From Candidatus Velthaea sp. (GTDB lineage: Bacteria; Vulcanimicrobiota; Vulcanimicrobiia; Vulcanimicrobiales; Vulcanimicrobiaceae): a DNA stretch of 64,000 nt. The translations under genes were made by a program, and so were the position numbers. The notes beneath the pieces are model-generated. The model had not been told where the DNA came from and made no database searches. It worked only from the letters and a program-made list of their open reading frames with translations. Below, piece after piece: positions 3 through 45,132 of the stretch. The stretch covers positions 39,328-103,327 of the forward strand of contig JBEKHC010000039.1 in NCBI GenBank assembly GCA_050012475.1. Reading direction: 5' to 3'. Within the stretch, counting starts at the first letter, position 1. Each line of letters begins with the position of its first letter.

Positions 3-464
3 AGCCCGGCAAAATCGAAGCTGCTGGCCAACGGCGGCGTGCCCTTCCGCACCTACGACAAGCTCGACGCTGCCGGATATGTCATCGCGGACCTCATCGT
101 CGCGCGCACCGCCTACGTGCAGCAGTATCCCGAGGCGGTCAGCGGCGTCCTGCATGCGTACGGCCGCGCGCTTGCGTTGTGGAAAACCAAACCTTCGGAC
201 GCGGCCGAGATCGTCGGCAAACAGGCCGGTGTGAGCGCCGAGGTCGCGCGTCACGATCTCGACGAATACGATTTCGTGCCGCTTCGCGAGCAGCTGACGC
301 CGACATGGTTGGGCGACCCTGGACACCCGGGTCAGTTCGCCGCGGTGCTCAAACGCACGGCAGATTTCCTGGTCGAACTCAAGAGCATCCGCTCCGCGCC
401 CGACCTGACGGCGTTTCAGACCGCAGTCAACACCAGCCCGTTGGCGCAGGCCGCACGTGCTTGA
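3..464 (+). CDS. ABC transporter substrate-binding protein, TauA/SsuA-like (5'-truncated by window edge)
   Basis: Frame is open from the window start; the C-terminal half resembles sulfonate/taurine SBPs; lies directly upstream of a TauB-like ATPase. Confidence 0.8.
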   Translation, partial: SPAKSKLLANGGVPFRTYDKLDAAGYVIADLIVARTAYVQQYPEAVSGVLHAYGRALALWKTKPSDAAEIVGKQAGVSAEVARHDLDEYDFVPLREQLTPTWLGDPGHPGQFAAVLKRTADFLVELKSIRSAPDLTAFQTAVNTSPLAQAARA

Positions 465-470
465 GCGAAC

Positions 471-1259
471 GTGACGAGTTCGCCCTTCGTCGAATTCGAC
501 GATCTGTCGATCGAATTCGCATCGAGTGACGGACCCGTCTTAGCGCTCGACCACGCTTCGCTGCACTTCGAGGAAGGCGCGTTCGTCTGTATCGTCGGAC
601 CCTCGGGCTGCGGCAAGACGACCTTGCTCCAAACGCTCGCGGGATTTCTCAAGCCGACAAGCGGCACCGTTCGGCTCGACGGCCGGGTCATCGACGGACC
701 CGGCGCCGACCGCGGCGTCGTCTTCCAGCAGCCGGCGCTTTTTCCGTGGATGACCGTGGCAAAAAACGCCGGTTTCGGTCTCATGGTGCGCGGCACCGCC
801 GACAGCGAACAACAAGCCGCAGTCGAATCATACCTGCGGTTCGTGGGTTTATGGGATTTTCGCAACCGTTATCCGTACGAGCTCTCCGGCGGGATGCAGC
901 AACGGCTGGCGATCGTGCGCGCACTGGTCAACGATCCCAAGGTCCTGCTCATGGACGAGCCATTCGGCGCTCTCGACGCCTTGACGCGCGAGAAAATGCA
1001 GGAAGAGCTGCACACGGTCTGGCGGCGCACGAAGAAAACGATCGTGTTCATCACGCACGGTGTCGAGGAGGCGGTCTACCTCGGCACCGAGGTCGTCGTG
1101 ATGTCGCCGCGACCCGGCCGAATCCTCGAACGCCTGCCCCTGCCGTTCGCTCGCAACGGTGAAGACCGTGACATTCGCGCCGTCAAGTCGAGTCCGGAGT
1201 TCGTCGCGCTGCGCGAACACGTGTTGTCGCTGATCTGGAAAACAGCCGACGCATTCTAA
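471..1259 (+). CDS. Nitrate/sulfonate/taurine ABC transporter ATP-binding protein (TauB-like)
   Basis: Walker A GPSGCGKT, LSGGMQQR signature, LLMDEPFGALD, GPGADRGVVFQ. Confidence 0.92.
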   Translation: MTSSPFVEFDDLSIEFASSDGPVLALDHASLHFEEGAFVCIVGPSGCGKTTLLQTLAGFLKPTSGTVRLDGRVIDGPGADRGVVFQQPALFPWMTVAKNAGFGLMVRGTADSEQQAAVESYLRFVGLWDFRNRYPYELSGGMQQRLAIVRALVNDPKVLLMDEPFGALDALTREKMQEELHTVWRRTKKTIVFITHGVEEAVYLGTEVVVMSPRPGRILERLPLPFARNGEDRDIRAVKSSPEFVALREHVLSLIWKTADAF

Positions 1260-1260
1260 G

Positions 1261-2964
1261 CTACACCCCGATCGCCATGCTTTGCATCGACTGGGCCGGC
1301 GGAAATGCCATCGCAGCGACAAAGACCTTGGTAAACCCTGGATCGGTCGCGAGCTCGATCGACTCGACCGCACGGGTTACGGCGAGCAGCGCGCCGCGGG
1401 CATCCGCGTTGACCAGCAGCGCTTCGGCGCCCGTGCGCGCGGTGTTGCCGACAAACGTGACTCTGCCTTCAAGTTGGGGCGGAAACAGACCAATGTCGAT
1501 GAGGCTGCGCGTCGTGAGGTGGTAGCCGAACGAGCCCGCGACCAGCACCCGGTCCAGATCCGCAGGCACGAGTCCGTTATGTGCGAGCATCGTATCGATG
1601 CCGGCCCGGACGGCTGCTTTTGCCAGTTGCACTTGCCGGATATCGCCTTGGCTGAGATACACGTCGCCGGACAAATGAAAAACCGTTTTTCCGTCGCGCG
1701 GGCGCAAGCGATCGCGTAACGCCGGCGACAGCTGCGTCACCTTGCGCGTGAACCGCCCCGAGCTTTCGACGACGCCGGTAACGACCATCGCGGCGAGCGC
1801 TTCGATCAAGCCGCTGCCGCAAATCCCGACGGCATCCGCACCGTCGATGGTCGCCACCCGGATGTCGTCGCCGTCGACTGCAACGCGTTCCACGGCGCCG
1901 CGCGCGGCACGCATACCGCAGGCGATGTTCATGCCCTCAAAGGCCGGCCCCGCAGCGGTCGATGTCGCTTGCAGCCGGCCGTCGCGCGCCAATACCATCT
2001 CGCCGTTGGTGCCGATGTCGACGAATAGCGTCACGCCGCCGGCGTTCGGCAGATCGGTCGAGAGCACGCCGGCGGCGATATCCGCGCCCACGAATCCCGA
2101 AATAAGGGGTGGAAAATAGATCTCGGCGCACGCGGCGACACGCAAACCCAGGGACCCGGCGGCGCGCGACTCATCGCCCGCGAGCGCCGGCGTGTACGGA
2201 AAACGTCCGAGCGGTTCGGGGCTGACGTTGGCGGCAAGGTGCATCATGCACGTATTTCCGGCAACGACCACTTCGTAGATGCGCCGGCGCGGAATGCGGG
2301 CTTCCGCGGCGAGCAATCCGATCATGCGGTCGATCTCGGCCATCAGCTCGTCGTGCAACAGCGCCAAACCGTCCGCTTGCGATGCAATCTGCACGCGCGA
2401 CAATACGTCCTGGGCGTGGGCGACCTGTGGATTGAGCGCGGCAACGGAACCGACGCGCGCTCCAGTCCCCAGATCGAGTAAAGAGGCAACGAGCGTCGTC
2501 GTTCCGATGTCGACTGCGACCCCGTAGAGGCGGGTCGTCGTGTCGCCGTTTTCTTCGGCCAGCTGCCGTTCACCCGAACTCACAATGGTGCACCGGCGCT
2601 CGTCATCGTAGCTTTTTCGAATGGCCGGGCGCACCGGCAGATCCAGCCGAAGACCGTCTTCGAGGATTCGCAGGCCGCGCTCGCCCGAACCCGGCAAGGT
2701 AACGTCCAGATCCCCCTCGACGAGCGTACTGCACAAGAGCACGCCGCCTTCCGCGACTTGCTCGCTCGAAAGCCCGCGGGTCGAAACGATGCGCGCTCGC
2801 GTCTGCCCTACCGCGTCCAGACGCACGCGGCACTTGCCGCAGGTGCCGACGCCGTTGCACGGTGCTTCCAAGCGGACGCGAGCCAGTCGCGCGGCGTCGA
2901 GCAGCGAGCTGCCGACGGGAACCTCCGCGCTCGCACCGGTGGGGAGAAACGTGACGATCGGCAT
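1261..2964 (-). CDS. ASKHA-domain [2Fe-2S] corrinoid reductive activator (RACo/RamA-like)
   Basis: N-terminal CNGVGTCGKC...LLC ferredoxin motif; VDIGTTT, VDIGTNGE, AAGPAFEG, GICGSG, QLAKAA motifs. Confidence 0.9.
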   Translation of the reverse strand: MPIVTFLPTGASAEVPVGSSLLDAARLARVRLEAPCNGVGTCGKCRVRLDAVGQTRARIVSTRGLSSEQVAEGGVLLCSTLVEGDLDVTLPGSGERGLRILEDGLRLDLPVRPAIRKSYDDERRCTIVSSGERQLAEENGDTTTRLYGVAVDIGTTTLVASLLDLGTGARVGSVAALNPQVAHAQDVLSRVQIASQADGLALLHDELMAEIDRMIGLLAAEARIPRRRIYEVVVAGNTCMMHLAANVSPEPLGRFPYTPALAGDESRAAGSLGLRVAACAEIYFPPLISGFVGADIAAGVLSTDLPNAGGVTLFVDIGTNGEMVLARDGRLQATSTAAGPAFEGMNIACGMRAARGAVERVAVDGDDIRVATIDGADAVGICGSGLIEALAAMVVTGVVESSGRFTRKVTQLSPALRDRLRPRDGKTVFHLSGDVYLSQGDIRQVQLAKAAVRAGIDTMLAHNGLVPADLDRVLVAGSFGYHLTTRSLIDIGLFPPQLEGRVTFVGNTARTGAEALLVNADARGALLAVTRAVESIELATDPGFTKVFVAAMAFPPAQSMQSMAIGV

Positions 2965-2967
2965 TGG

Positions 2968-4002
2968 TCAGGCCCGGTGCCCGGTCTTCACCGCGCCGGT
3001 CAGGGCTCGAATATTGTCGAGACCCGTCGATGTGCTGAGTCCGCAGGCCGGGGCGATAATGTCGACACCATCATGCACGAGCCGCTCGGCGCTGCGCTGG
3101 ACCTTGTTCGCGTCAGCGAATTCCAGCAGCGCGGTACTGAGGTTTCCCATCGTCGTGATTTGCGGATAGTCTGCTTTGAGCCGCACCAGGCTGACTTTCG
3201 CGTCGACGCTGATCGCATCGGCGTGCAGATCGGCGAGGTAGTGGCGACTGCGGCTCATATCACCGCAAATATGAACGATGACGGGCTTGCCCGCCGCATG
3301 CACCGCATCGCACAGCAGGTTGAGGTAACGCACCGCAAACGAGCTGAAAATCGCCGGCCCCAAGATCTCGCCGGTCGCCGTAGGATCGCCGATCGCGATC
3401 ACGTCGGCGCCGTTGCGAGCAACTTCCTGCGCGTAAGCGACGAGCAGCCGGGTGATGTAATCGAGCACGCGATGCGCGTCGCGCGGTTTGGTGCGCAATT
3501 CCTTGAGAAAGCTGAGCGGGTCGACGACCGAAGCAGCCGTGCTGATCGGCCCGGAAAGCGTCGCAATCACCGGCACGTCGGGGTTGCGCGTTTTGAGCTG
3601 ATAAGCGGCTTGAATGACCGTCCCGATGCGCCCGCTGCGCACGAGTTGCTCAACGTCGTGAATCTCCACGTCGCTCGACGAAGCATAGGCCTCCGCCGCG
3701 ATTTTCGGCTCGCACGAAAGCGAGCCCGAGTCGATGCGGCTGCCGAGCACCTCCGGCTCGACGGTCATGCAGAACGGAACCCCGAGATTTTCGAATCCCG
3801 TCTTCGCGCGCACGCGTTCGGCAAGTTTGGTCATGCTCTCCGATGAGTAGTGCGCTTGCGGCAGTTTGGGCGAGTCATCCTCGTCCATCACGCCGACGAC
3901 CGCCGCGTTGAGCATGCCACCGGTGCAGATGACGGGAGGCCGGTCGACTTGCTCGTTGGCGAGCACGCGCACCAGGCGTTCGCGCGGAGCAAGCTCAAGC
4001 AC
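2968..4002 (-). CDS. MtaA/CmuA-family (URO-D fold) methylcobamide:thiol methyltransferase
   Basis: VDRPPVIC, VPFCMTVE, Zn motif IVHICG and C-terminal APACG. Confidence 0.88.
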   Translation of the reverse strand: MLELAPRERLVRVLANEQVDRPPVICTGGMLNAAVVGVMDEDDSPKLPQAHYSSESMTKLAERVRAKTGFENLGVPFCMTVEPEVLGSRIDSGSLSCEPKIAAEAYASSSDVEIHDVEQLVRSGRIGTVIQAAYQLKTRNPDVPVIATLSGPISTAASVVDPLSFLKELRTKPRDAHRVLDYITRLLVAYAQEVARNGADVIAIGDPTATGEILGPAIFSSFAVRYLNLLCDAVHAAGKPVIVHICGDMSRSRHYLADLHADAISVDAKVSLVRLKADYPQITTMGNLSTALLEFADANKVQRSAERLVHDGVDIIAPACGLSTSTGLDNIRALTGAVKTGHRA

Positions 4003-5059
4003 GAGCGGTTCTCTCCGGCGCGAAAACCGCCGGCAGACCGGTCACGGCAGCGGTCAGTGCGGCGATGTTGGCCAGGCTGGTGGCGCTTGCCAAACCGCAA
4101 GCCGGCGAGACAACGTCGACGCCGCCGCGCACAAGACGGGCACCGACGTTTGCAATTTGGCCAGGCTCTCCCTGATGCAACAGAAACGTGCTGACGTTGC
4201 CTACCACGGCCAACTGCGGAAAGGCTTGGGCGAAGTACTGCAGCGACACCGCGGCATCGGGAATGAAACCATCGCAGCGCAACGTGCGAAGCTGCGCATC
4301 GACGCGGTCGAGGTGACCGCACATGTGCACGAGCACGCGCGCCCCGGTCTGCGCAACCGCGTCGATGAGCCGCTGCAAATGCGGCAGAACGCTGCGCTCG
4401 AAGACCGCCGGACCGGCGAGTGCGGGAGTGACCGTATCTTCGTGAATGACGATGACGTCGGCACCGGCCGCGACCAGCTCGCGCGCAAAACCGATCTCGA
4501 AGTCCGTGACGTGCTCGACGAGCGAGCGCACATCATCGGGACTTTTGCGCAGCTCGCGAAAGAACGCATCCGGGCGCACGGCCGCAGCCGCGACGCTGAC
4601 GGGCCCGATTAGATTCCCGATGATCGGTAAATCTTCCGCGGTCTCGGTCAACCGGCGCACCGCCGCCACCGAGATCCCGATGCGCCCGCGCTGCAAACGC
4701 TCGTCCACGGGGACGCGCGGCACGTCCGCACACCGCTCGTAGGGTTCGCGCACGACCCGTGCTTCCGTGGCCTCGTCACCGAGATCGACGATCGCGCCGA
4801 ATGCTTCCGCCTCGACCGTCGTGCAGAGCGGAACCCCGACCGATTCGAACCCGGTGAGACGCGCAGCCGCCAGCGCCAGACCGGCCATCGCCGCCGCGTC
4901 CGAATGCGCGTCGGGCAACCGGTAGCCCGAACGAATCACGACTTCCGCCGGGACGCCGCTCATGCTGCCGCCGCTGCAAATGACCGGGGGACGATCGACG
5001 GGGAGGCGCGCGAGCGCCTGCAGCAAACGGGCGCGACGATCCAATGCGGCGCTCACCAT
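3995..5059 (-). CDS. MtaA/CmuA-family methyltransferase paralog 2
   Basis: VDRPPVIC, VPLCTTVEAE, LVHMCG, SPACG; start moved to ATG 5059, just after the upstream gene's stop. Confidence 0.85.
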   Translation of the reverse strand: MVSAALDRRARLLQALARLPVDRPPVICSGGSMSGVPAEVVIRSGYRLPDAHSDAAAMAGLALAAARLTGFESVGVPLCTTVEAEAFGAIVDLGDEATEARVVREPYERCADVPRVPVDERLQRGRIGISVAAVRRLTETAEDLPIIGNLIGPVSVAAAAVRPDAFFRELRKSPDDVRSLVEHVTDFEIGFARELVAAGADVIVIHEDTVTPALAGPAVFERSVLPHLQRLIDAVAQTGARVLVHMCGHLDRVDAQLRTLRCDGFIPDAAVSLQYFAQAFPQLAVVGNVSTFLLHQGEPGQIANVGARLVRGGVDVVSPACGLASATSLANIAALTAAVTGLPAVFAPERTARA

Positions 5060-5064
5060 TGCAA

Positions 5065-6147
5065 CTAATAGTGCCCGTAGAGCCGGGCGGCCTTGACCAT
5101 GGTCGCGGCGCTGAGCAGGTTGCCGTTGGGCGGAAACTCGCAGCCGCTCGAGAGGATGAACCCGCCCTCGGCAACGCGGAAGGTTTCGATTTGCTGACGG
5201 CATTCTTCGAGCAGATCCGCTTGGCTGAACTCGTGACCGGCCTTCGCGGGGTCGATGACGCCGATGGTCACGACCTTCTTCCCCCAGTTCTGCGCGTGCG
5301 CCGTGAGGTCGGCCGAGCCGTAGGCCGGATACGCGTGCGAGATCGCAATCGGTTCGATGTGCTCGATTACCGCGTCGAAATACACGCCGTTACCGCAATT
5401 GTGCACGATCACGGGTACGCCGGCGGCGCGAACTGCGTCAGCGATCGGATGCATGAACACGCCCTCGAAATCGACCCAGGTCTGTTTCTTGAGAATCGAC
5501 GCCGAGGAATACAGCGGATCGAGGACGATGGCGTGCGCTCCCGCCTCCACTTGGGCGACAGCGTACTCGACGAGCACGCCGGTAATCGTGTTCACCGCTT
5601 CGAGCACGCGATCGGGATGGCGGATCAAATCTTTAAACAATTCGGCATGACCGCGAATCTGCGACAACACGCCCAACGGGCCATACACGAAACCCATCAC
5701 CGCGACGTCCTTGCCGCGCGCTTCAGCGAGACCGCGCACGATCTCGATGACGCCGCTGGTGCGGCGCGATTTGCGCGGATCGAAAGCGCGCACTTTCCCG
5801 TACTCCTGCGCCGTTGCAATAAACGGATTGTCGAAGTTCGGGAGCGCCGTGCTCCAATCGGGGAAGAGCACTTCTTGGCCGAAGTCTTCGGCTTCGACCG
5901 ACAGGTCGACCAGGGTGAGCCAGCCGTCGAACCCGATCAGTTCTTGCGCCGCGAGCAGGCTGGCCGTCGCGGCCTTCGCATCCTGCGACCAGCGGCCGTA
6001 CGAGATGCCCAAGACGCGGCCCGAGGCGCCGCAGACGAGCGGCGCCGCCGGTACCCGGTCGGGCTTTTTGTATTGCAGCGCCAGTCCGACCCGTTCGAGC
6101 GACGTCAGTTGGTCGCGCTGGGCCGTGGCGGTTCCGTTGGTGCTCAT
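5065..6147 (-). CDS. URO-D-fold methyltransferase paralog 3
   Basis: KPDRVP, DLSVEAEDFG, IVHNCG, GGFILSSGCE. Confidence 0.85.
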   Translation of the reverse strand: MSTNGTATAQRDQLTSLERVGLALQYKKPDRVPAAPLVCGASGRVLGISYGRWSQDAKAATASLLAAQELIGFDGWLTLVDLSVEAEDFGQEVLFPDWSTALPNFDNPFIATAQEYGKVRAFDPRKSRRTSGVIEIVRGLAEARGKDVAVMGFVYGPLGVLSQIRGHAELFKDLIRHPDRVLEAVNTITGVLVEYAVAQVEAGAHAIVLDPLYSSASILKKQTWVDFEGVFMHPIADAVRAAGVPVIVHNCGNGVYFDAVIEHIEPIAISHAYPAYGSADLTAHAQNWGKKVVTIGVIDPAKAGHEFSQADLLEECRQQIETFRVAEGGFILSSGCEFPPNGNLLSAATMVKAARLYGHY

Positions 6148-6806
6148 GCCGCGTGCACGACTTCAGTCAGGCGTTTTGCCAGTTGCACGGCGAGCGTCGC
6201 CTTCGCCGCGTAGCCGTCGGCTCCGATGCGGTCGGCGAATTGCTGCGAGAGCGGAGCGCCGCCGACGATCACTTTGAAGCGCTCGCGGATGTCCTCGGCT
6301 CGGAGTATTCGGACGACTTGCGCCATCTGATCCATCGTCGTCGTCATGAGCGTCGAAAGTGCGATCACGTCGGCATTCACTTCCAACGCGCGATCGACGA
6401 ACGTTCGGGCCGGCACGTCGCGGCCCAGATCGAAGACCTCGAAACCGGCAACTTCGAGCATGATCCGCACCAAATTCTTGCCGATGTCGTGCGTGTCGCC
6501 GGCAACCACGCCGATGACGACCCGGCGACCGCGCACGGACGATTCCTGACGAATATGGGGCTGCAGGATCGCGAGGCCGGCATACATCGCATCGGCCGCA
6601 ATCAAGAGTTCGGGAACGAAGTACTCCTCTTCGTCAAAGAGTTTTCCCGCCGCATTCATGCCGGCAATCAACCCATGTTCGACCGCCGCCCAAGCGTCGA
6701 GGCCCTGCGTGACTACCTCCTGCGACAGCTCGGCCGTCAACGGCTCGTCAAGCTCGAGAACCGCGTTGGCTAGAGCGGCATGCAGCTCATCAGGATCTTC
6801 GGACAT
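6144..6806 (-). CDS. Corrinoid (B12-binding) protein, MtaC/MtbC-like
   Basis: B12 motif GDTHDIGKNLV, LSTLMTTT, VGGAP; N-terminal cap EYFVPELL. Confidence 0.92.
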   Translation of the reverse strand: MSEDPDELHAALANAVLELDEPLTAELSQEVVTQGLDAWAAVEHGLIAGMNAAGKLFDEEEYFVPELLIAADAMYAGLAILQPHIRQESSVRGRRVVIGVVAGDTHDIGKNLVRIMLEVAGFEVFDLGRDVPARTFVDRALEVNADVIALSTLMTTTMDQMAQVVRILRAEDIRERFKVIVGGAPLSQQFADRIGADGYAAKATLAVQLAKRLTEVVHAA

Positions 6807-6853
6807 AACATCTCCTTCTGTCGAAAGCGGCGCGTCCGGACGGCCGCGCAGAG

Positions 6854-7099
6854 TCAGTCATCATCGAGCTGCGCGACACCATTCACGAGCTCGATCCTTT
6901 CGTGGCTGCAGGCACCGGCGCACGCCCCGCATCCCGCACAGCGTCCGCTATCGATACTGATGCCTTCGTCGACGCGCGTAACCGCGTCGTTGAAACACAC
7001 TTCCGTGCAAGGCGCTTCACAAACGCGACAGACCCCGTCGGACGGTCCGCGATCCGAAGCTGGTTGACCCACACCCGATGACGCCACGAAGATCGACAT
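6854..7099 (-). CDS. 4Fe-4S dicluster ferredoxin
   Basis: CRVCEAPCTEVC and CAGCGACAGAC motifs; first gene of the corrinoid unit. Confidence 0.8.
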   Translation of the reverse strand: MSIFVASSGVGQPASDRGPSDGVCRVCEAPCTEVCFNDAVTRVDEGISIDSGRCAGCGACAGACSHERIELVNGVAQLDDD

Positions 7100-7269
7100 T
7101 CAACAAGCGGTCTTTCTGATCGAGAGAACCGGCGCTCAGATGGTCGAGCATCGCGTCGAGCGCTTTTAAGTCAGTACCGACATCGACGTTCAAGCCGGCG
7201 ATTCGACCGCGTAGGCCGTGCCCGCTGGTCCGGTACCTTCGAGCCACACCGCAATGTCGCGTTTGGAAG

Positions 7270-7446
7270 AAAAATGACGAAGCCCCTCACCGAACCGGCG
7301 AAGGGCTTCTTCGCAGAATAGCGCGGTGCGCTAACCCGCGGTGAAACTCACCGGCCCATTCGAAGGGGCCGGGTACACCACTGCGCTAACGCACGAGAGA
7401 GAAGCATTGCTTAATGATAGTAGCTGTTTGACGGTTCATGTGTCAA
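7270..7446 (-). promoter_or_regulatory. Putative attenuator L1: promoter, leader MLLSRALAQWCTRPLRMGR (7407-7348), terminator 7309-7279
   Basis: TTGACA-18-TACTAT, ATG 9 nt later; single TGT followed by hairpin CCGGCCCC..GGGCCGG whose 3' side (CCGGTGAG) can alternatively pair with the terminator arm TTCGCCGG. Confidence 0.62.
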
Positions 7447-7721
7447 GCAGATGAATGCAGTTCTCAAACACATGTGCTAAAGCAATTGCTATGCTTTATT
7501 GGAATTAAATCGTTTGCTCCGCATGTTGCCGGTTTGCTCGCTGCGCGCTTTCGACAGGGATGCCGCGCTGCAACGAGCATTCGACGCTAACTTAGGGTCA
7601 ACTATAATTTAACGTAGGGCCGACAAAATGCAAAATGCCGGCACCCATTATGCAATCGCTGCTTAACTACTTCACGACGGAAGCGAACTTCCGGACGCGA
7701 CGTACGAGCAGCTCCGCCTCT

Positions 7722-8381
7722 TCACTTCGCGCGATGATCGATTTGCTGCGTGACCCGATCGCCGCCGGCCTGAACCGCGCACACGAACGCGATCAGCACC
7801 AGGACGACGGCGATCATCACGGTCGTCTCAAAGCGCTGATACCCGTAGCGGATCGCGAGGTCGCCCAAACCGCCCGCGCCCACCGCACCCGCAACGGCCG
7901 ACTCGCCGATGAGCGAGATCAACGTCACCGTAAAGCCCGCCGACAGCCCGGGGAGCGCCTCGGGAACGAGCACTTCCCAGACGATCGTGGCGCGGTTCGC
8001 TCCCATCGCGCGCGCCGCTTCGATCAGGCCTCCGTCGACTTCGCGCAGCGAGACTTCGGCGATGCGGGCAAAGTATGGGATCGCCGCGATCGACAGCGGG
8101 ACGATCGCCGCCAACGTGCCGATCGACGTGCCCGCGATCAGCCGCGTAAACGGAATGAGCGCAACCATCAAGATGATGAACGGGACCGAACGAAACGAAT
8201 TGACGACCGCGCCAAGGATCCGGTTGACCGTCGGTTGTTCGACGATTCCGCCGCGATCGGTGCATACCAGAACGAGGCCGATCGGCAACCCGATAAGGAG
8301 TGCGATAAGGCCCGAAGCGCCGACCATCAGCAGCGTTTCGAGCAGGGCCTCAACCGTGAGGTTAACGATCTGAGTTGAGAT
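7722..8381 (-). CDS. metI: Methionine ABC transporter permease
   Basis: RSVPFIILMV, GAVGAGGLGDLAIRYGYQRF. The expected start at 8381 reads ATC behind GGAGGT; the next in-frame ATG is 8327. Confidence 0.88.
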   Translation of the reverse strand: MSTQIVNLTVEALLETLLMVGASGLIALLIGLPIGLVLVCTDRGGIVEQPTVNRILGAVVNSFRSVPFIILMVALIPFTRLIAGTSIGTLAAIVPLSIAAIPYFARIAEVSLREVDGGLIEAARAMGANRATIVWEVLVPEALPGLSAGFTVTLISLIGESAVAGAVGAGGLGDLAIRYGYQRFETTVMIAVVLVLIAFVCAVQAGGDRVTQQIDHRAK

Positions 8382-9456
8382 AGCCGAGCACCTCCACGGA
8401 AGAAACGCGGTCTTCGACGAACGCGCGGAAGCGCGAAGCCACGTCCGGCCCAGTATTTTTCACGCTCACGAACAGGGTTCCGATCGGCTCGCCCTGCACG
8501 TGCTCGACTCCGCCCTCGAGCAGCGTCGCCGCGCCAAAGACTTGCGAAAGGTTGGCAAGGAGCGGCGAGCGCGCCTGATCCCCTTGCACGTCGAGGCGCA
8601 CGACGAGAGCATCGCCCGTCACTTCGTGCAGCCGTGCAGCGATAAACTCCGGCAGCTCCGGCCGCAACGCGCCGAGCAGCCTGCGCGTGCCCGGCGCCTC
8701 GGGCGCGGCGAACACCGCAGACACGGGGCCCGTCTCGATGACCCGGCTATTTTCGAGCACGACGACCCGGTCGGCGATCGCACGGATCACGCTCATCTCA
8801 TGGGTAATCAGCACGATCGTGAGCCGCAAGCGGCGGTTGATCTCGCGCAGCAGTTCGAGAATCGAAAGCGTCGTCTCCGGATCGAGCGCCGACGTGCCTT
8901 CGTCGGAGAGCAACAGCAGCGGTTCGGCGGCGAGCGCACGCGCGATGCCCACGCGCTGTTTCTGGCCGCCGGAAAGCTGCGCCGGATAGGCGTCGCCGCG
9001 CCCGGAGAGATCGGCGAGGTCGAGCAGTTCGTTCACGCGCCGGCGACGCTGGGCAGCAGCGATTCCGGCGATCTTCAGCGGCAAGGCAATGTTCTGCGCC
9101 ACCGTCTTCGATGAGAGCAGATTGAAGTGCTGAAAAATCATTCCGATCCGGCGTCGCATCGGCTGCAGTTCGCTCTCCGAGAGGCGGGCGATATCCACGC
9201 CCTCGATCTCGACCATCCCGGTGTCGGGACGCTCGAGACCGTTGAGGCAGCGAATGAGCGTCGTCTTTCCCGCGCCGCTGCGGCCGATGATCCCGAGGAT
9301 CTCGCCCGGCTGCACCGCGAGCGAGATCGCATCGAGCGCAACGTATTCGCCGAATCGCTTACCGACGTTGCTCAGCCGCAGCAGCGCACGCGAATCGGTT
9401 TGGTCGTCGACGGGCTGATCCCGGATAGCGAACGGCGACGCAGAAACCTGGCTCAC
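8362..9456 (-). CDS. metN: Methionine ABC transporter ATP-binding protein with C-terminal NIL-like domain
   Basis: GRSGAGKT, IGMIFQHFNLL, LSGGQKQRVGIARAL, C-terminal VEVLGY. Confidence 0.92.
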   Translation of the reverse strand: MSQVSASPFAIRDQPVDDQTDSRALLRLSNVGKRFGEYVALDAISLAVQPGEILGIIGRSGAGKTTLIRCLNGLERPDTGMVEIEGVDIARLSESELQPMRRRIGMIFQHFNLLSSKTVAQNIALPLKIAGIAAAQRRRRVNELLDLADLSGRGDAYPAQLSGGQKQRVGIARALAAEPLLLLSDEGTSALDPETTLSILELLREINRRLRLTIVLITHEMSVIRAIADRVVVLENSRVIETGPVSAVFAAPEAPGTRRLLGALRPELPEFIAARLHEVTGDALVVRLDVQGDQARSPLLANLSQVFGAATLLEGGVEHVQGEPIGTLFVSVKNTGPDVASRFRAFVEDRVSSVEVLGYLNSDR

Positions 9457-10265
9457 CAGCCCGGAAGCGCCGTTCCGTGGTAGACCTTGACCAAGGCGCT
9501 CTTGATATCGTTGTTCTCGTACGACGCCACGAGCGTGCGCACCCAGGTTTCGTTCTCCTCACCCGTTTTCACCGCGATGAAGTTGCGGTACGGGTTGTCC
9601 TTGGCGGGCTCGGTCGCGATGCGGTCTTTCTGCGTGAGCTTCGACTTGGCGGCCCAGTCGGTGTTGACGACGGCGGCATCCACGTCGTCGATCGAGCGGC
9701 CCACGATGCCGGCGTCGAGTTCGCGCACGACGATGTTTTTCGGATTGCTGACGATATCGGTCTGCGTCGCCGTTATGCCGGAGCCTTCGCGCAGCTTGAT
9801 CAGGCCGACGTCCTCGAGCAGCACCAGCGCGCGGCCTTCATTGCTTGGATCGTTCGGCACGCCGATCTTTGCGCCGGCCGGCAGATCGGCGACGCTGCGA
9901 TGCTTGTGCGAATACAGTCCGATCGGCCAAATCGCCGTGTAACCGGCGATCGCGATATGATAGCCGCGCGTCTTGATCTGATTGTCGAGATACGGCTTGT
10001 GTTGGAATGCATTCGCATCCAGTTCGCCGTGTTCGAGTGCTTCATTGGGTTGCGTGTAGTCGTTGAACGTCACGACCTTCACGTTGAGACCGCGCTTCTT
10101 GGCCTCTTGCACGACGAGGGCCCAGAGGTCCTCATCCTCACCGCTTTCGATGCCGACGCGGACGGGATTCGGGGCGCTGTCCGCGTGCGCGAGGAGCGGC
10201 AGCGAACCGCCGAACAGAACGCTGGCTGCGAGGACGGCGACAGCCCAGCGGCGATAAATCTTCAC
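9453..10265 (-). CDS. metQ: MetQ/NlpA-family substrate-binding protein
   Basis: FNDYTQPN, DANAFQHKPYL, PNDPSNEGRAL; start set to GTG 10265 behind AAGGAG (the track's 10418 start runs through the attenuator). Confidence 0.9.
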   Translation of the reverse strand: MKIYRRWAVAVLAASVLFGGSLPLLAHADSAPNPVRVGIESGEDEDLWALVVQEAKKRGLNVKVVTFNDYTQPNEALEHGELDANAFQHKPYLDNQIKTRGYHIAIAGYTAIWPIGLYSHKHRSVADLPAGAKIGVPNDPSNEGRALVLLEDVGLIKLREGSGITATQTDIVSNPKNIVVRELDAGIVGRSIDDVDAAVVNTDWAAKSKLTQKDRIATEPAKDNPYRNFIAVKTGEENETWVRTLVASYENNDIKSALVKVYHGTALPGW

Positions 10266-10311
10266 GACGAGAAAACTCCTTGCATGAGTGCGGGGTGAAA
10301 TGACATGAAAT

Positions 10312-10477
10312 AAAAAAGCCCTCGACCGATCGGTAGAGGGCAAAATCTTGCGCTCCCGCGTCTTTAGACGCGCGCAAACCTCTTCCGACCTATTATGGGC
10401 GCCGACGAACACCGACACATCGCGCTGGCGGAAGAACTCATGGCGCTACGCTACCATCCCGTTGCGCGGCGTGTCAA
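10312..10477 (-). promoter_or_regulatory. Putative Cys attenuator L2: leader MSSSASAMCRCSSAPIIGRKRFARV (10441-10364), terminator 10341-10312
   Basis: TTGACA-18-TAGCGT (TG-extended), ATG 6 nt later; leader GGTCGGAAGAGG pairs 11/12 with terminator arm CCTCTACCGATC; T6 tract. Confidence 0.82.
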
Positions 10478-26501: not shown

Positions 26502-26573
26502 AGGCCACGGCGAGAATCGAACCCGCTCATTGCGGTTTTGCGGACCGCCGCCTTCCCACTTGGCTACGTGGCC
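26502..26573 (-). tRNA. tRNA-Cys (GCA), atypical C at position 33
   Basis: Acceptor GGCCACG/CGTGGCC, U73 discriminator, D arm GCC..GGC, anticodon stem GCGGT/ACCGC with loop CCGCAAA, T loop TTCGATT; CCA not encoded. Confidence 0.88.
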
Positions 26574-42023: not shown

Positions 42024-42953
42024 ATGGCCGACCCTGCGACCCCTGCAAGAGCCCTAGGCGACGACGCCGCCAGGCAACTCGCAAATGCCACCAAGACCGT
42101 TCCGCAATACGACATCATCACGCCGCGGTGGCTCGTGCGCTGTCTGCAGTGGGTGCCGGTCGAGGCGGGCGTTTTCCGGCTGAACCGGGTCAAGGACGCG
42201 AGCAGCGTCGCCGTCGACTGCGCCGATCGCGACGAGCGCGATCTGCCCGAAACGTACGTCAATTACGAAGAAAACCCGCGCGAGTATTTGCTGTGCGCGG
42301 TGACGACCGTCGTCGACGTTCACACACGCGTCTCCGACCTCTACAGCGTTCCCCACAACCAGATCGCGCAGCAGCTCCGCCTGGCCATCGAGACCATCAA
42401 GGAACGCCAAGAGAGCGAACTCATCAATAACGCCGAGTACGGGCTGTTGAGCAGCGCGACGCCGGCGCAAAAGCTCTCGACGCTTGGCGGCGCCCCCACC
42501 CCCGACGACCTCGACTCCCTTATCGCGAAAGTCTGGAAAGAGCCGGGCTTCTTCCTCGCTCATCCCTCCGCGATTGCGGCGTTCGGCCGCGAATGCACGC
42601 GCCGCGGCGTCCCGCCCGCCACCATCAACCTGTTCGGCTCGCCGTTCATCACCTGGCGCGGCATCCCGCTCATCCCGTCGGATAAAGTGAAGGTCGTCGA
42701 CGGCAAGACCAACATCTTGCTGATGCGTACCGGCGATGCGCGTCAGGGCGTCGTCGGCCTCTACCAGCCGAATCTCCCCGGCGAACAGAGCATGGGTCTT
42801 GCGGTGCGCTTCATGGGCATCGATCGCAAGGGCATCGCGTCGTATCTAATCTCGCTGTATTGCGCGCTCGCGGTACTAACGGACGACGCCCTCGGTGTTC
42901 TCGAGAACGTCGACGTGACGAAGTTCCCTGTGTACACGCATACCTATGCCTGA
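42024..42953 (+). CDS. Family 2A encapsulin shell protein (SrpI / major membrane protein I-like)
   Basis: ARQLANATKT, ITPRWL, YEENPREY, VHTRVSDLYS, ERQESELINN, PTPDDLD, ECTRRGVPP. Confidence 0.92.
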   Translation: MADPATPARALGDDAARQLANATKTVPQYDIITPRWLVRCLQWVPVEAGVFRLNRVKDASSVAVDCADRDERDLPETYVNYEENPREYLLCAVTTVVDVHTRVSDLYSVPHNQIAQQLRLAIETIKERQESELINNAEYGLLSSATPAQKLSTLGGAPTPDDLDSLIAKVWKEPGFFLAHPSAIAAFGRECTRRGVPPATINLFGSPFITWRGIPLIPSDKVKVVDGKTNILLMRTGDARQGVVGLYQPNLPGEQSMGLAVRFMGIDRKGIASYLISLYCALAVLTDDALGVLENVDVTKFPVYTHTYA

Positions 42954-45132
42954 TCTGCCGGATCCGCAATCGCTGGGCGCGCCCGGCGAAGACCTCATCG
43001 GTCGCATGGCCAACGCGATGTTTCGGGCCGCGACGCAAAGCGTCGCGTGGCCCGGCGGCCTTCCGAGCGGAACCGGCACGCCGCTGGGCGGCTTCGGCGC
43101 GGCCCTGCCGTCGACACCGCTGCCGGACGCGTTTGCGCCGACGATCACCGCTCCGAGCGCCGTCCCGGCCGGCACGATTCCGCCAGGCACGATTCCGCCG
43201 GATATTGCAACGGCTGCGCCGCCGCCGCTCGCGGCGCCGAGCGTTTCCGGCTTCGATGCCGCTCCAAGCGGAACGCCCGGCATAGCGCTGGGCGGTTTCG
43301 GCGCACCGCTGCCTTCGACGCCGCTTCCCGACGCTGCCGCGCCGGGCGCGGTTCCCGGCGATTCTGCCTTCAATCCGGTCGGCATCTCGAATCCCGTCGA
43401 ATCGAAGCCCGCGCCGGAGTCCGCAGCGCTACCGCCCCACGGTGGGGTCACGCCCGACGGTTTCTCCGGCGCTCCGGCAACCGCGCCGCGCGGCGGCTTC
43501 GGTGCTCCGCTGCCTGGCCACGCCGCGCCTGAACGCGGAACGCCCGAGTTCAACGTGCCCGCGTTATCCGACGCGAGCCTTTTCGTTCCCGACCAAGCCA
43601 TCCCAACCGACACGCTTTCGCGGCGTGGCCAGCCCGGCACGCTGCCCGAGTCGTCGTTGCCCACGTCGTCGTTGCCCGCGTCGTCGTTGCCCGGCGCGAA
43701 AATGCCCGGCCCGTCATCGCCTAGCGTGCCGCCGCTCGGACTCGCGATTCCCGGTGAAGACGATCTTCGCGCATTGCTCGCGGCCGCGGCCATCCCGTTC
43801 GTGCAACCGACGTTGCAGGACGCCGCATCGCCGCACTACTATTTCCTGAAGCCGCCGGCGGAGCTCGCCGCCGCACCGGCCGCGGACGGCTTCGACGTGG
43901 ATCTCGTCCGGCACGATTTCCCGATCTTGTCCGAACGCGTCCATGGCCGGCCGCTGATCTGGTTCGACAATGCGGCCACCACGCAAAAGCCGCAAGCGGT
44001 AATCGACCGCCTGAGCTATTTCTACGAACACGAGAACTCCAACATCCATCGTGCCGCGCACGACTTGGCCGCACGTGCGACCGACGCGTACGAAAAGGCT
44101 CGCGAGACCGTGCGCCGCTTCATCAATGCTGGTTCCGCCGACGAGATCGTTTTCGTGCGCGGCACCACCGAAGCGATCAATCTGATCGCCAACACGTGGG
44201 GCCGGCGTTTCATCGGCAAGGGCGACGAGATCGTCGTCACCTGGCTCGAGCATCACGCCAACATCGTGCCGTGGCTGCTGGTGTGCGAGCAGACCGGGGC
44301 GATCCTCAAAGTCGCTCCGGTCGACGACCGCGGTCAAGTCAAACTCGATGAGTACGGGAAGCTCCTGGGGCCGCGCACCAAATTAGTGTCGTTTACCTCG
44401 GTCTCGAACGCGCTGGGGACGATCACGCCGGCCAAAGTCATGACCGATATGGCCCACGCCGCCGGCGCACGCGTGCTGCTCGACGGGGCCCAATCGGTCT
44501 CGCATATGCGCTCGGACGTTGCGGCACTCGACGTCGACTGGTTCGTGTTCTCGGGACACAAGGTCTTCGGGCCGACCGGGATCGGCGCGGTGTACGGCAA
44601 GCCCGACGTGCTCGCGGAATCACCGCCGTGGCAAGGCGGCGGCAACATGATCGAGGATGTGACGTTCGAACGGGCCCTCTACAAGGCACCGCCGAGCCGG
44701 TTCGAGGCCGGGACGGGGAACATCGCCGATGCCGTCGGTCTGGGCGCTGCGCTGGAATACGTCGAACGCGTCGGCATCGAGGCGATCGGCCGCCACGAAC
44801 ACGATCTGCTCGCGTTCGCAACGCGGTTGCTGCTCGACATACCGGGGCTGCGGATCATCGGCACGGCGGCCGAAAAGGCCGGCGTGATCTCCTTCGTCCT
44901 CGACGGGATCGACCCGGTCGAAGTGGGAACCGCGCTCAACGAAGACGGCATCGCCGTCCGGGCTGGTCACCACTGCGCGCAACCCATTCTGCGCCGCTTC
45001 GGCTTGGAAAGCACCGTGCGCGCGTCACTCGCGCTCTATAATACGCTGGCCGAAGTCGACGCATTGGCCGCGTCGGTGCGCCGGATTCAATCGAAGCGAG
45101 CACCGCATCGCGGGGCGCGCTCGGCGGTTTGA
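42946..45132 (+). CDS. Encapsulin-cargo cysteine desulfurase (SufS-like) with ~310-aa Pro/Gly-rich N-terminal extension
   Basis: DNAATTQKP, FSGHK (PLP Lys), RAGHHCAQP; overlaps the shell gene's end. Confidence 0.92.
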   Translation: MPDLPDPQSLGAPGEDLIGRMANAMFRAATQSVAWPGGLPSGTGTPLGGFGAALPSTPLPDAFAPTITAPSAVPAGTIPPGTIPPDIATAAPPPLAAPSVSGFDAAPSGTPGIALGGFGAPLPSTPLPDAAAPGAVPGDSAFNPVGISNPVESKPAPESAALPPHGGVTPDGFSGAPATAPRGGFGAPLPGHAAPERGTPEFNVPALSDASLFVPDQAIPTDTLSRRGQPGTLPESSLPTSSLPASSLPGAKMPGPSSPSVPPLGLAIPGEDDLRALLAAAAIPFVQPTLQDAASPHYYFLKPPAELAAAPAADGFDVDLVRHDFPILSERVHGRPLIWFDNAATTQKPQAVIDRLSYFYEHENSNIHRAAHDLAARATDAYEKARETVRRFINAGSADEIVFVRGTTEAINLIANTWGRRFIGKGDEIVVTWLEHHANIVPWLLVCEQTGAILKVAPVDDRGQVKLDEYGKLLGPRTKLVSFTSVSNALGTITPAKVMTDMAHAAGARVLLDGAQSVSHMRSDVAALDVDWFVFSGHKVFGPTGIGAVYGKPDVLAESPPWQGGGNMIEDVTFERALYKAPPSRFEAGTGNIADAVGLGAALEYVERVGIEAIGRHEHDLLAFATRLLLDIPGLRIIGTAAEKAGVISFVLDGIDPVEVGTALNEDGIAVRAGHHCAQPILRRFGLESTVRASLALYNTLAEVDALAASVRRIQSKRAPHRGARSAV

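What the first reader, a model, noticed from the sequence alone, without database searches (positions are those of the whole stretch)
1261..7446. Corrinoid methyltransferase module with three thiol-activating paralogs inside a sulfur regulon
One unit encodes a ferredoxin, a B12 protein, three URO-D-fold methyltransferases that all keep the HxC...C Zn motif, and a RACo-type activator. Such modules are best known from methanogens and acetogens, yet this region also encodes O2-dependent dioxygenases. No MttB/MtmB/MtaB-type substrate methyltransferase or methyl-THF methyltransferase is visible in the window. Inference: thiol-to-thiol methyl transfer that recovers sulfur or methyl groups from methylated sulfur compounds, analogous to MtsA/MtpA, used here for assimilation.
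Basis: partly seen in the sequence, partly recalled or inferred. Interest (0 to 1): 0.78.

Follow-up and report, generated by a model that had tools for sequence, protein, structure and literature searches.

The report
Cysteine-switched B12 methyl-sulfur scavenging operon
A peat and soil bacterium carries, likely by gene transfer from purple bacteria, a previously described but barely tested six-gene vitamin-B12 methyl-transfer cluster behind a predicted cysteine-starvation switch, so it likely strips methyl groups from methyl-sulfur compounds to win sulfur when oxygen is absent.

Summary
The unit is a type 1 'mlp gene cluster' of the non-selenium clade (Kountz & Balskus preprint, PMC10418091). 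Its proteins are 58-80% identical to those of Rhodoblastus strains listed there. The family is described, but its function in this clade is untested.

Three things are added here. (1) The host is a phototrophic, nitrogen-fixing Eremiobacterota genome (94% complete) in which neither selenium genes nor a Mar-like reductase was found. The preprint calls Mar 'invariably present' in this clade; it was not found in 9 of 17 carrier genomes. (2) The module is a 5.5-kb block nearest to Rhodopila, between host-type flanks. (3) The operon sits behind a near-leaderless Cys-containing leader peptide with a predicted antiterminator/terminator, like about 20 sulfur operons of this genome. A second, independently gained cluster in the family also has a Cys leader.

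Best reading: a thiol-to-thiol methyl relay that frees sulfur for cysteine under anoxia. Substrates are inferred (methanethiol/DMS favoured; methionine or S-methylcysteine possible). The leader has only one Cys. The scan found this cluster type, and Cys attenuators, before on other DNA, separately.

The parts
7417..7446 (-). sigma70-type promoter, TTGACA (7446-7441), 18 nt, TACTAT (7422-7417)
   Evidence: 10 of 12 consensus matches; both boxes invariant in relatives L079 and L080
7348..7407 (-). near-leaderless 19-codon leader ORF MLLSRALAQWCTRPLRMGR, starting 9 nt after the -10 box; single Cys codon at 7377-7375; predicted attenuator sensor
   Evidence: frame, stop and QWCTRPL kept in L079 and L080
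7343..7356 (-). predicted antiterminator arm over the leader stop codon; pairs with the terminator 5' arm when the ribosome is modelled at or near Cys11
   Evidence: constrained folding in 3 of 3 copies
7269..7309 (-). intrinsic terminator: 14-bp hairpin 7309-7279 plus U-rich tail
   Evidence: whole-leader fold z = -4.7; all pairs kept in L079 and L080 through one-sided changes
6854..7099 (-). 81-aa 4Fe-4S dicluster ferredoxin, likely electron donor to the activator
   Evidence: Fer4 families; a like ORF precedes the corrinoid gene in most relatives shown; dN/dS 0.27 against L079
6144..6806 (-). stand-alone corrinoid (methyl carrier) protein, 220 aa
   Evidence: PF02607+PF02310; 71-77% identical to Rhodoblastus and Rhodopila copies
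5065..6147 (-). divergent Mlp2-like Zn methyltransferase (P0003, 360 aa); H249/C251/C336; no fourth carboxylate ligand
   Evidence: PF01208; long-branch clade inside the Mlp2 group, SH-aLRT 94; model pLDDT 92.9, top fold match MtaA 4ay8
3995..5059 (-). second Mlp3-like Zn methyltransferase (P0001, 354 aa); H245/C247/D268/C321; H-E-D in place of G-D-P at the substrate strand
   Evidence: PRK06252 over cut-off; about 33% identical to MtaA 4ay7, my count; 39% to P0002; trees; motifs
2968..4002 (-). Mlp3 of the non-selenium clade (P0002, 344 aa); H244/C246/D267/C320
   Evidence: PRK06252 over cut-off; 74% to Rhodoblastus and 58% to Heliophilum Mlp3; one clade with them, SH-aLRT 98 and 90/85
1261..2964 (-). 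Fer2 + RACo/ASKHA ATP-dependent corrinoid reductive activator (P0005, 567 aa); last gene, the usual downstream cobW gene is missing
   Evidence: PF00111, PF17651, PF14574; cobW follows RACo in 11 of loci L004-L016 but was not found in this assembly

Best explanation
The operon is a non-selenium type 1 mlp gene cluster, and it likely works as a closed thiol-to-thiol methyl relay that is predicted to switch on when cysteine runs short and would free sulfur from methanethiol or dimethyl sulfide without oxygen. Shown: gene content, Zn ligands, family placement, lack of N/O-methyl and THF partners in the assembly, and the promoter-leader-terminator anatomy. Inferred from family knowledge: ferredoxin and RACo use ATP to reduce the corrinoid protein to Co(I); a Zn(His-Cys-Cys) enzyme moves the methyl group from a methyl-sulfur donor to Co(I); another moves it from methyl-Co(III) to an acceptor thiol. 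Inferred assignment, weakest step: the Mlp2-like enzyme handles methanethiol/sulfide, because C. ljungdahlii Mlp2 methylates selenide and, slowly, sulfide; one Mlp3-like enzyme takes a second donor such as DMS; the other methylates homocysteine. Net: sulfide goes to CysK/MetY for cysteine and homocysteine, and the methyl group goes to methionine, so no sulfur is spent on the methyl sink. Predicted control: a ribosome paused at the leader's Cys codon lets the antiterminator form, and a ribosome at the stop lets the terminator form. It would be the anoxic counterpart of the O2-dependent SfnG/SfnB/TauD routes in the same island. The broad claim (an S-methyl relay serving sulfur supply) I put at about 0.75; the confidence given is for the volatile-donor version.
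For: His-Cys-Cys in all three enzymes, which the preprint ties to S/Se substrates. No MttB, MtaB, MtmB or stand-alone THF methylase. No SelA, SelD or tRNA-Sec. Genome scan: 24 of 52 promoter-sORF-terminator units pass a stricter filter; 23 of the 24 carry Cys (72 of 551 codons against 9 of 217 in 9 promoter-sORFs without a strict terminator; Fisher p = 1.3e-4). They precede sir, cysH, sulP, cysE, metY, metQ, metN, sfnG, ssu/tau and cystine transport. The Cys-free one is Leu-rich and precedes leuA. Same design ahead of the sulfite-reductase operon in 14 of 18 family loci. The leader is conserved and switchable in 3 of 3 copies. The family's other non-selenium cluster (G126) is not a sister (AU p = 7e-12), yet it also sits behind a Cys-Cys-Cys leader. 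FNR-like box (consensus recalled), 9-10 of 10 matches, upstream in 6 of 9 Rhizobiales-type loci. BchE over cut-off in 14 of the 17 carriers. dN/dS 0.07-0.27. Precedent: the Methanococcus Sdm cluster is induced by selenium starvation and linked to dimethylselenide use.
Against: No expression or biochemical data. The leader has one Cys codon; mycobacterial sensors were called from two or more. A random 18-codon frame has at least one Cys about half the time. The folding model gives antitermination for a stall anywhere from codon 3 to 14, so it cannot single out Cys11 from Trp10 or Gln9. The strict filter was set after seeing the first list. 17 of 23 Cys leaders behaved as switches in the model, 6 did not. 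Nothing here identifies the donor or acceptor. The P0003 clade is only about 24% identical to canonical Mlp2 and lacks the fourth ligand, so ClMlp2 chemistry may not carry over. Methyl exchange between thiols should be near equilibrium (general knowledge) and needs downstream pull. The cobW chaperone gene is missing, and CbiC was not found although CobS was, so the cell likely depends on outside B12 precursors. No FNR-like box in this genome's own promoter or in the Rhodopila copies.
Confidence: 0.45

Rival explanations
1. Same relay and same cysteine control, but the donors are amino acids: methionine is demethylated to homocysteine (then CBS/CGL to cysteine), or S-methylcysteine directly to cysteine, with the methyl group passed to another thiol.
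For: A metNIQ operon is adjacent (7722-10418), also in L079. CBS-like plus cystathionine-lyase-like genes flank the cluster in L008, L010 and L017. A CBS-like gene 20 kb upstream has a similar W-C leader, and a CBS-CGL pair lies on contig C81. The P0003 clade has its own conserved pocket motif (L-D-P-L-Y-S).
Against: Demethylating methionine needs a methyl sink that is not itself a sulfur loss, and no THF methylase was found. The fold search ranks MtaA/UroD far above MetE-type homocysteine-binding barrels (TM 0.77-0.80 against about 0.55).
Confidence: 0.25
2. Methionine salvage as proposed in the preprint: the methylthio group of MTA-derived intermediates is dismantled and the methyl group returned to homocysteine; the purpose is methionine, not cysteine.
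For: Proposed for this clade in PMC10418091. MetE was not found, so another homocysteine methylase could be useful.
Against: The leader has no internal Met in the two relatives and only a late one (codon 17) here, outside the modelled sensing window, whereas a metY leader of this genome is Met-rich. Full-length MetH and MmuM exist. No Mar-like partner. MTA-pathway genes were not searched.
Confidence: 0.12
3. The enzymes act on O- or N-methyl (or halomethane) substrates with partners encoded elsewhere; the sulfur setting is incidental.
For: The URO-D superfamily includes O- and halogen-demethylases. The assembly is 93.8% complete.
Against: His-Cys-Cys rather than carboxylate-substituted sites. 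No MttB here; no MtaB or MtmB in any of 18 genomes searched. Own Cys-type leader.
Confidence: 0.05
4. Methyl-selenide recycling or detoxification, as for most type 1 clusters.
For: The only biochemistry on the family is selenide methylation by ClMlp2, about 4-fold faster than sulfide.
Against: No SelA, SelD or tRNA-Sec. SelA in 1 of the 17 carriers of this subtype. Mlp3 groups with listed non-selenium members.
Confidence: 0.04
5. A decaying remnant, or an assembly or binning chimera with an alphaproteobacterial contig.
For: 5.3% contamination; 76% nucleotide identity to Rhodopila; cobW lost; not found in 3 of 3 same-genus genomes.
Against: dN/dS 0.07-0.27 and intact frames. An independent contig, L079, matches 204-7628 continuously at 87.6% with the same flanks. 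A 5,035-nt contig of run X1, which may be the source sample, spans 2897-7931. Flanks and ThrRS match same-genus genomes. The leader is of the host's type and absent from Rhodopila.
Confidence: 0.03

Closest known systems
Type 1 mlp gene clusters, non-selenium clade (Kountz & Balskus, bioRxiv 2023, PMC10418091)
   Same: Two or more MtaA-like proteins, corrinoid protein and Ram/RACo in one unit; His-Cys-Cys; no THF methylase; sulfur-gene context; same gene order and 58-80% identity to Rhodoblastus strains on the paper's list.
   Different: Host phylum not on the list; host encodes aerobic respiration and oxygenases; no Mar-like gene found; composition is divergent Mlp2 plus two Mlp3-like proteins, with no short Mlp1 (shared with Rhodoblastus); predicted Cys-leader attenuator; cobW missing.
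Methanosarcina MtaA/MtbA/MtsA methylcobamide:CoM methyltransferases (PDB 4ay7/4ay8)
   Same: URO-D barrel and Zn ligands; about 30-33% identity for two of the proteins (my counts); top fold match for the third.
   Different: Below the MtaA and MtbA equivalog cut-offs; not a methanogen; acceptor predicted to be another thiol; assimilatory, not catabolic.
Methanococcus SdmABC dimethylselenide demethylation system (seen only through PMC10418091 and PMC11097638 passages)
   Same: Same family; induced by starvation for the element it is thought to release from a methylated volatile.
   Different: Selenium and an archaeon there; sulfur predicted here, in a bacterium without selenium genes.
Methylthio-alkane reductase MarHDK (PDB 9FMG, 9D9U)
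   Same: Anaerobic sulfur acquisition from volatile methyl-sulfur compounds; often beside mlp clusters, as in G126.
   Different: Reductive C-S cleavage releasing methane or ethylene; not found in this genome (best 26-27%, to NifD/NifE).
Mycobacterial polycysteine leaderless sORF attenuators, the 'Cys ribulon' (Canestrari et al., bioRxiv 10.1101/834739)
   Same: Leaderless Cys-containing mini-ORFs ahead of many sulfur operons.
   Different: The dissected mycobacterial case is translational (SD occlusion); here an intrinsic terminator/antiterminator is predicted, and this operon's leader has a single Cys.

Membership tests
type 1 mlp gene cluster (MGC) | [quoted passage not shown] | tested here: met
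   P0002 about 30% and P0001 about 33% to MtaA 4ay7 (my counts)
type 1 mlp gene cluster (MGC) | same direction, no divergent gene between, gaps under 2 kb | tested here: met
   all minus strand, overlaps or gaps of 47 nt or less
type 1 mlp gene cluster (MGC) | no THF methylase within 20 kb | tested here: met
   the three PF00809 matches lie on other contigs and are two DHPS and MetH
type 1 mlp gene cluster (MGC) | encodes an Mlp3 | tested here: met
   P0002 in one clade with the Heliophilum and Rhodoblastus proteins next to RACo; C. ljungdahlii sequences were not in hand, so labels rest on listed organisms and on synteny of G010 with the C. ljungdahlii order
type 1 mlp gene cluster (MGC) | encodes an Mlp2 | tested here: inconclusive
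   P0003 falls with the Mlp2 group at SH-aLRT 94 on a branch of 1.96 (quick tree) and is about 24% identical to canonical Mlp2; the listed Rhodoblastus clusters have the same protein
type 1 mlp gene cluster (MGC) | His-Cys-Cys Zn site | tested here: met
   3 of 3 window proteins; 18 of 19, 15 of 16 and 22 of 22 in their clades
type 1 mlp gene cluster (MGC) | sequence-similarity-network cluster membership as in the paper | not testable with these tools
   no EFI-EST; the supplement trees were cut when read
non-selenium MGC clade | Mlp3 in the non-selenium clade; selenium traits may be absent | tested here: met
non-selenium MGC clade | MarHDK-like genes in or near the cluster or elsewhere in the genome (stated as invariable; an association, not one of the paper's four criteria) | tested here: not met
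   all 8 PF00148 matches are NifDKEN, BchNB, BchYZ; two Mar-like D queries find nothing in G000 and in 8 of 16 relatives; G000 is 93.8% complete
non-selenium MGC clade | host is an obligate anaerobe (stated in the paper's text; an association) | tested here: not met
   4 COX1 matches, TauD, SfnG; genomic inference only
MtaA/MtbA equivalogs | NCBIfam NF040654 / NF041608 cut-off; CoM as acceptor | tested here: not met
   best 222 of 400 and 199 of 600 bits; CoM use not tested
leader-peptide transcription attenuator (Cys) | short ORF at the transcript start, competing antiterminator and terminator, conserved in relatives | tested here: met
   (computational)
leader-peptide transcription attenuator (Cys) | a run of two or more sensor codons | tested here: not met
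   one Cys in 3 of 3 copies; 21 of the 24 strict units have two or more
leader-peptide transcription attenuator (Cys) | read-through depends on cysteine and on leader translation | not testable with these tools
   needs reporters or RNA data

The most novel reading that the evidence does not exclude
This three-enzyme subtype is a second, Mar-independent bacterial route for winning sulfur from DMS and methanethiol without oxygen: a B12 methyl shuttle that sends the sulfur to cysteine and keeps the methyl group as methionine instead of releasing methane. It has spread among peat phototrophs and was twice placed under the cysteine-sensing ribosome switches of Eremiobacterota.
Probability: 0.35. 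Interest if true: 0.8.

Novelty: new variant of a known kind. Interest (0 to 1): 0.52.

Why it matters
A 2026 paper states that DMS methyltransferases are known only in archaea and that Mar is the only known enzyme for anaerobic sulfur acquisition from DMS and related compounds in bacteria (PMC13753814, passage). A cluster under predicted cysteine control in genomes where Mar was not found is a concrete candidate for a second route. It would affect methanethiol/DMS budgets in peat without making methane. The leader offers regulatory evidence on what the non-selenium clusters are for (cysteine supply rather than methionine salvage), and a cultured Mar-less carrier (R. acidophilus DSM 142) makes the question testable. 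The family itself is already described, which limits surprise.

Tried and rejected
Rfam found no riboswitch in the leader or in 16 related loci. No RNA holder listed. The SelD-like match is ThiL. The two extra nitrogenase-like pairs are BchNB and BchYZ, not Mar. I first took P0001 for Mlp1; the short Mlp1 proteins form a separate clade. Whether P0001 is a duplicate of the non-selenium Mlp3 is unresolved: sister at SH-aLRT 92, unresolved three-way position. The careful 103-row tree did not finish, so one search is the quick tree; it left out rows under 240 aa and L022/L023 (103 of 105 rows kept), and long rows were cut to 400 aa. The fold search gave no hint of substrate. No Cys leader was found before the cluster in 11 non-Eremiobacterota or unassigned loci scanned. 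The contigs laid did not show a listed piece bridging the 1259/1261 junction; L079 does. Complex prediction was not run (enzyme with carrier protein). MTA-salvage, MegL, MddA and MtoX genes were not searched. Literature searches. They found no paper on this cluster in Eremiobacterota, on its cysteine control, or on biochemistry of the non-selenium clade; the library lacks most subscription papers.
Full report
OBSERVATION. The six genes are real and form one minus-strand unit: ferredoxin 6854-7099, corrinoid protein 6144-6806, URO-D-fold proteins 5065-6147 (P0003), 3995-5059 (P0001) and 2968-4002 (P0002), and Fer2-RACo 1261-2964. All three URO-D proteins keep His-x-Cys...Cys in register with MtaA 4ay7. 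P0001 and P0002 are 39% identical; P0003 matches them only locally at 27-30%. The assembly (5.36 Mb, 93.8% complete, 5.3% contamination) has one RACo, one stand-alone corrinoid protein and a full MetH. MttB, MtaB, MtmB, MetE and a stand-alone THF methylase were not found.

HOST AND SETTING. Named homologs of the ThrRS on the same contig are Ca. Velthaea (81-85%), Ca. Baltobacteraceae, Ca. Eremiobacteraeota and kin, with two rows labelled otherwise; I read the host as Eremiobacterota. It encodes pufLM, BchNB, BchYZ, two BchE, NifDKEN and four COX1 matches. A passage of PMC9758169 says that Ca. Velthaea has both bchE and acsF, while the one cultured relative is a strict aerobe. Twenty runs from 14 studies hold part of the stretch; the four I laid are one soil and three peat metagenomes. 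The contig is a sulfur-scavenging island: SfnG twice, SfnB, MsuE, Xsc-like (in two ORFs), tau/ssu transporters, two metNIQ, CysK, TauD, MetY, CysE, and a family 2A encapsulin with its desulfurase.

IT IS A DESCRIBED FAMILY. Kountz and Balskus (PMC10418091; I read parts 1-4 and 6 of 6 of the text, supplements 1 and 3 whole, and part 1 of 3 of supplement 2 plus a term search) define type 1 mlp gene clusters by four criteria, all met here. Their table lists Rhodoblastus acidophilus DSM 137, R. sphagnicola DSM 16996, Rhodovastum and Heliophilum as non-selenium members and has no Eremiobacterota entry. My loci L010 and L011 come from those two Rhodoblastus strains and have the same gene order at 58-79% identity; I did not see the paper's locus tags for them. 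In a 103-row quick tree P0002 groups with the Heliophilum and Rhodoblastus Mlp3, P0001 forms a separate Mlp3-like clade, and P0003 is a long branch within the Mlp2 group. A careful 33-row tree keeps the P0002 grouping and leaves P0001's position open. The preprint's only assay is selenide, and weakly sulfide, methylation by C. ljungdahlii Mlp2; the non-selenium clade is untested there.

WHERE IT DEPARTS FROM THE PAPER. SelA, SelD and tRNA-Sec were not found. The paper says Mar-like genes are invariably present in this clade. Here all eight nitrogenase-fold matches are Nif or Bch. Two Mar-like D queries from G126 (466 and 219 bits to R. rubrum MarD, 9FMG) found nothing in G000 and in 8 of 16 related carriers, among them isolate genomes R. 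acidophilus DSM 142 and MO; 8 of 16 had a match. Most of these genomes are drafts or MAGs and several are close kin, so this is 'not found', not proven absence.

ORIGIN. Window 1297-6794 aligns as one block at 76% to two Rhodopila MAGs, while the flanks and ThrRS match same-genus genomes, none of which (0 of 3) has the module. All three enzymes are sister to Rhodopila. An Mlp3 match was found in 2 of 400 other genomes of the phylum, a RACo match in 2 of 347 of the family, and a P0003 match in 3 of 61 Rhodopila-genus genomes. G126's cluster is not a sister (AU p = 7e-12), and G010's is a selenium-type cluster in a genome with SelA. Transfer into this lineage is the simplest reading; the donor direction was not tested with a rooted model. 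An independent contig (L079) has the module between the same flanks, and dN/dS is 0.07-0.27.

REGULATION, THE NEW EVIDENCE. Between the promoter (7446-7417) and the ferredoxin lie a 19-codon ORF starting 9 nt after the -10 box and a 14-bp terminator. Both are conserved in L079 and L080. With the ribosome modelled at Cys11, a long antiterminator sequesters the terminator's 5' arm in 3 of 3 copies; at the stop codon it collapses. A genome scan gave 52 such units, 24 after a stricter filter chosen afterwards. Of these 23 carry Cys (13% of codons against 4%, p = 1.3e-4). By my annotation about 20 precede sulfur operons; one precedes a PaaK-like ligase, one a phosphonate-binding-type protein, and one lies at a contig end. 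The Cys-free unit precedes leuA. The design precedes the sulfite-reductase operon in 14 of 18 family loci, so it is native to the host family, and G126's cluster and its MarDK both have Cys-Cys-Cys leaders. Against: this leader has one Cys, and the model cannot tell it from neighbouring codons. The closest published case is the mycobacterial Cys ribulon (10.1101/834739; abstract and Discussion read). Rhizobiales-type copies instead carry an FNR-like box (consensus recalled): 9-10 of 10 matches in 6 of 9 such loci and 12 of all 31 loci examined, none in Rhodopila or here. Cys/Met enzymes were confirmed beside the cluster in L004, L008, L010, L014, L017 and L019; I scanned selected ORFs only, and saw none in L005, L009, L012 or L013.

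MECHANISM. With only Zn-thiol-type methyltransferases and one carrier, both donor and acceptor are likely sulfur atoms. Control by cysteine shortage implies that the useful product is free sulfur. The version that wastes no sulfur is methanethiol (and DMS) as donor and homocysteine as acceptor, giving sulfide for CysK/MetY and methionine. It parallels the starvation-induced Methanococcus Sdm system for selenium (passages of PMC11097638; the primary paper was not read). Donor and acceptor identities and the role of each paralog are inference. Amino-acid donors (0.25) and MTA salvage (0.12) remain open.

VERDICT. What is new is the Mar-less, selenium-less, oxygen-using host, the cross-phylum transfer, and the predicted cysteine attenuator, seen on two independently gained clusters. 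Other papers were seen as passages (PMC13753814, PMC13474568, 10.64898/2026.08.20.746119) or search listings only. The cut supplement trees of the preprint could bear on the Mlp2 assignment. Interest 0.52; new variant of a known kind.

Noticed in passing
G000 genome-wide; in the window leader starts at 7407(-), 10441(-), 15970(-), 16325(+), 30465(-), 31836(-), 33186(+), 40159(+), 46459(-): A genome-wide set of leaderless Cys-containing leader ORFs with terminators ahead of sulfur operons: 23 of 24 strict units, 17 switch-like in the model; also family-wide before the sulfite-reductase operon.
   Followed up: yes
G000:C21:44920(+); L186:3192(+): The same design with a Leu-rich leader before leuA and, in G332, a Thr-run leader: the family seems to use leaderless attenuators for several amino acids.
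   Followed up: partly
L034 (G126:C2:516200-527900): Another Eremiobacterota cluster joins a nitrogenase-like D/K pair, two URO-D proteins, RACo, corrinoid protein and DUF4395 in one operon, facing a MarDK pair; both have Cys-Cys-Cys leaders.
   Followed up: partly
L026 (G000:C43): A complete Mo-nitrogenase cluster (nifHDKEN and accessory genes) in a phototrophic Eremiobacterota genome; its origin was not examined.
   Followed up: no
   Followed up: no
window 42024-45132: Family 2A encapsulin shell with its cargo cysteine desulfurase, a known sulfur-starvation system; no Cys leader seen directly before it.
   Followed up: no
L001:12581-14352: An Xsc-like sulfoacetaldehyde acetyltransferase is split into two ORFs (model positions 1-166 and 205-588): a frameshift or an assembly error.
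   Followed up: no
L008, L011, L086, L088, L091 upstream of the ferredoxin: After the FNR-like box lies a conserved palindrome-like motif around the -10 region; Rrf2-like genes lie near the cluster in L006 and L008 (by eye). A possible sulfur-regulator site.
   Followed up: no
L081, L082, L121 upstream of the ferredoxin: A different conserved leader of about 150 nt with no Rfam match precedes the cluster in three unassigned metagenome contigs.
   Followed up: partly
L015:11968-21050; L022: Broken copies: the cluster is cut by a transposase-like ORF in L015, and L022 is a second, frameshifted copy in the genome of L007.
   Followed up: no
L062 (G596:C1:497007-498014): An Mlp3 with one in-frame TAG reported.
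   Followed up: no
window 26502-26573 (-); L002:4009-4072: A tRNA with anticodon read as GCA (Cys) inside the sulfur island, and a fluoride riboswitch further upstream.
   Followed up: no
G000:C6:27454-28941 and C60:29337-30821: Two full BchE copies; a real duplication or part of the 5.3% contamination.
   Followed up: no
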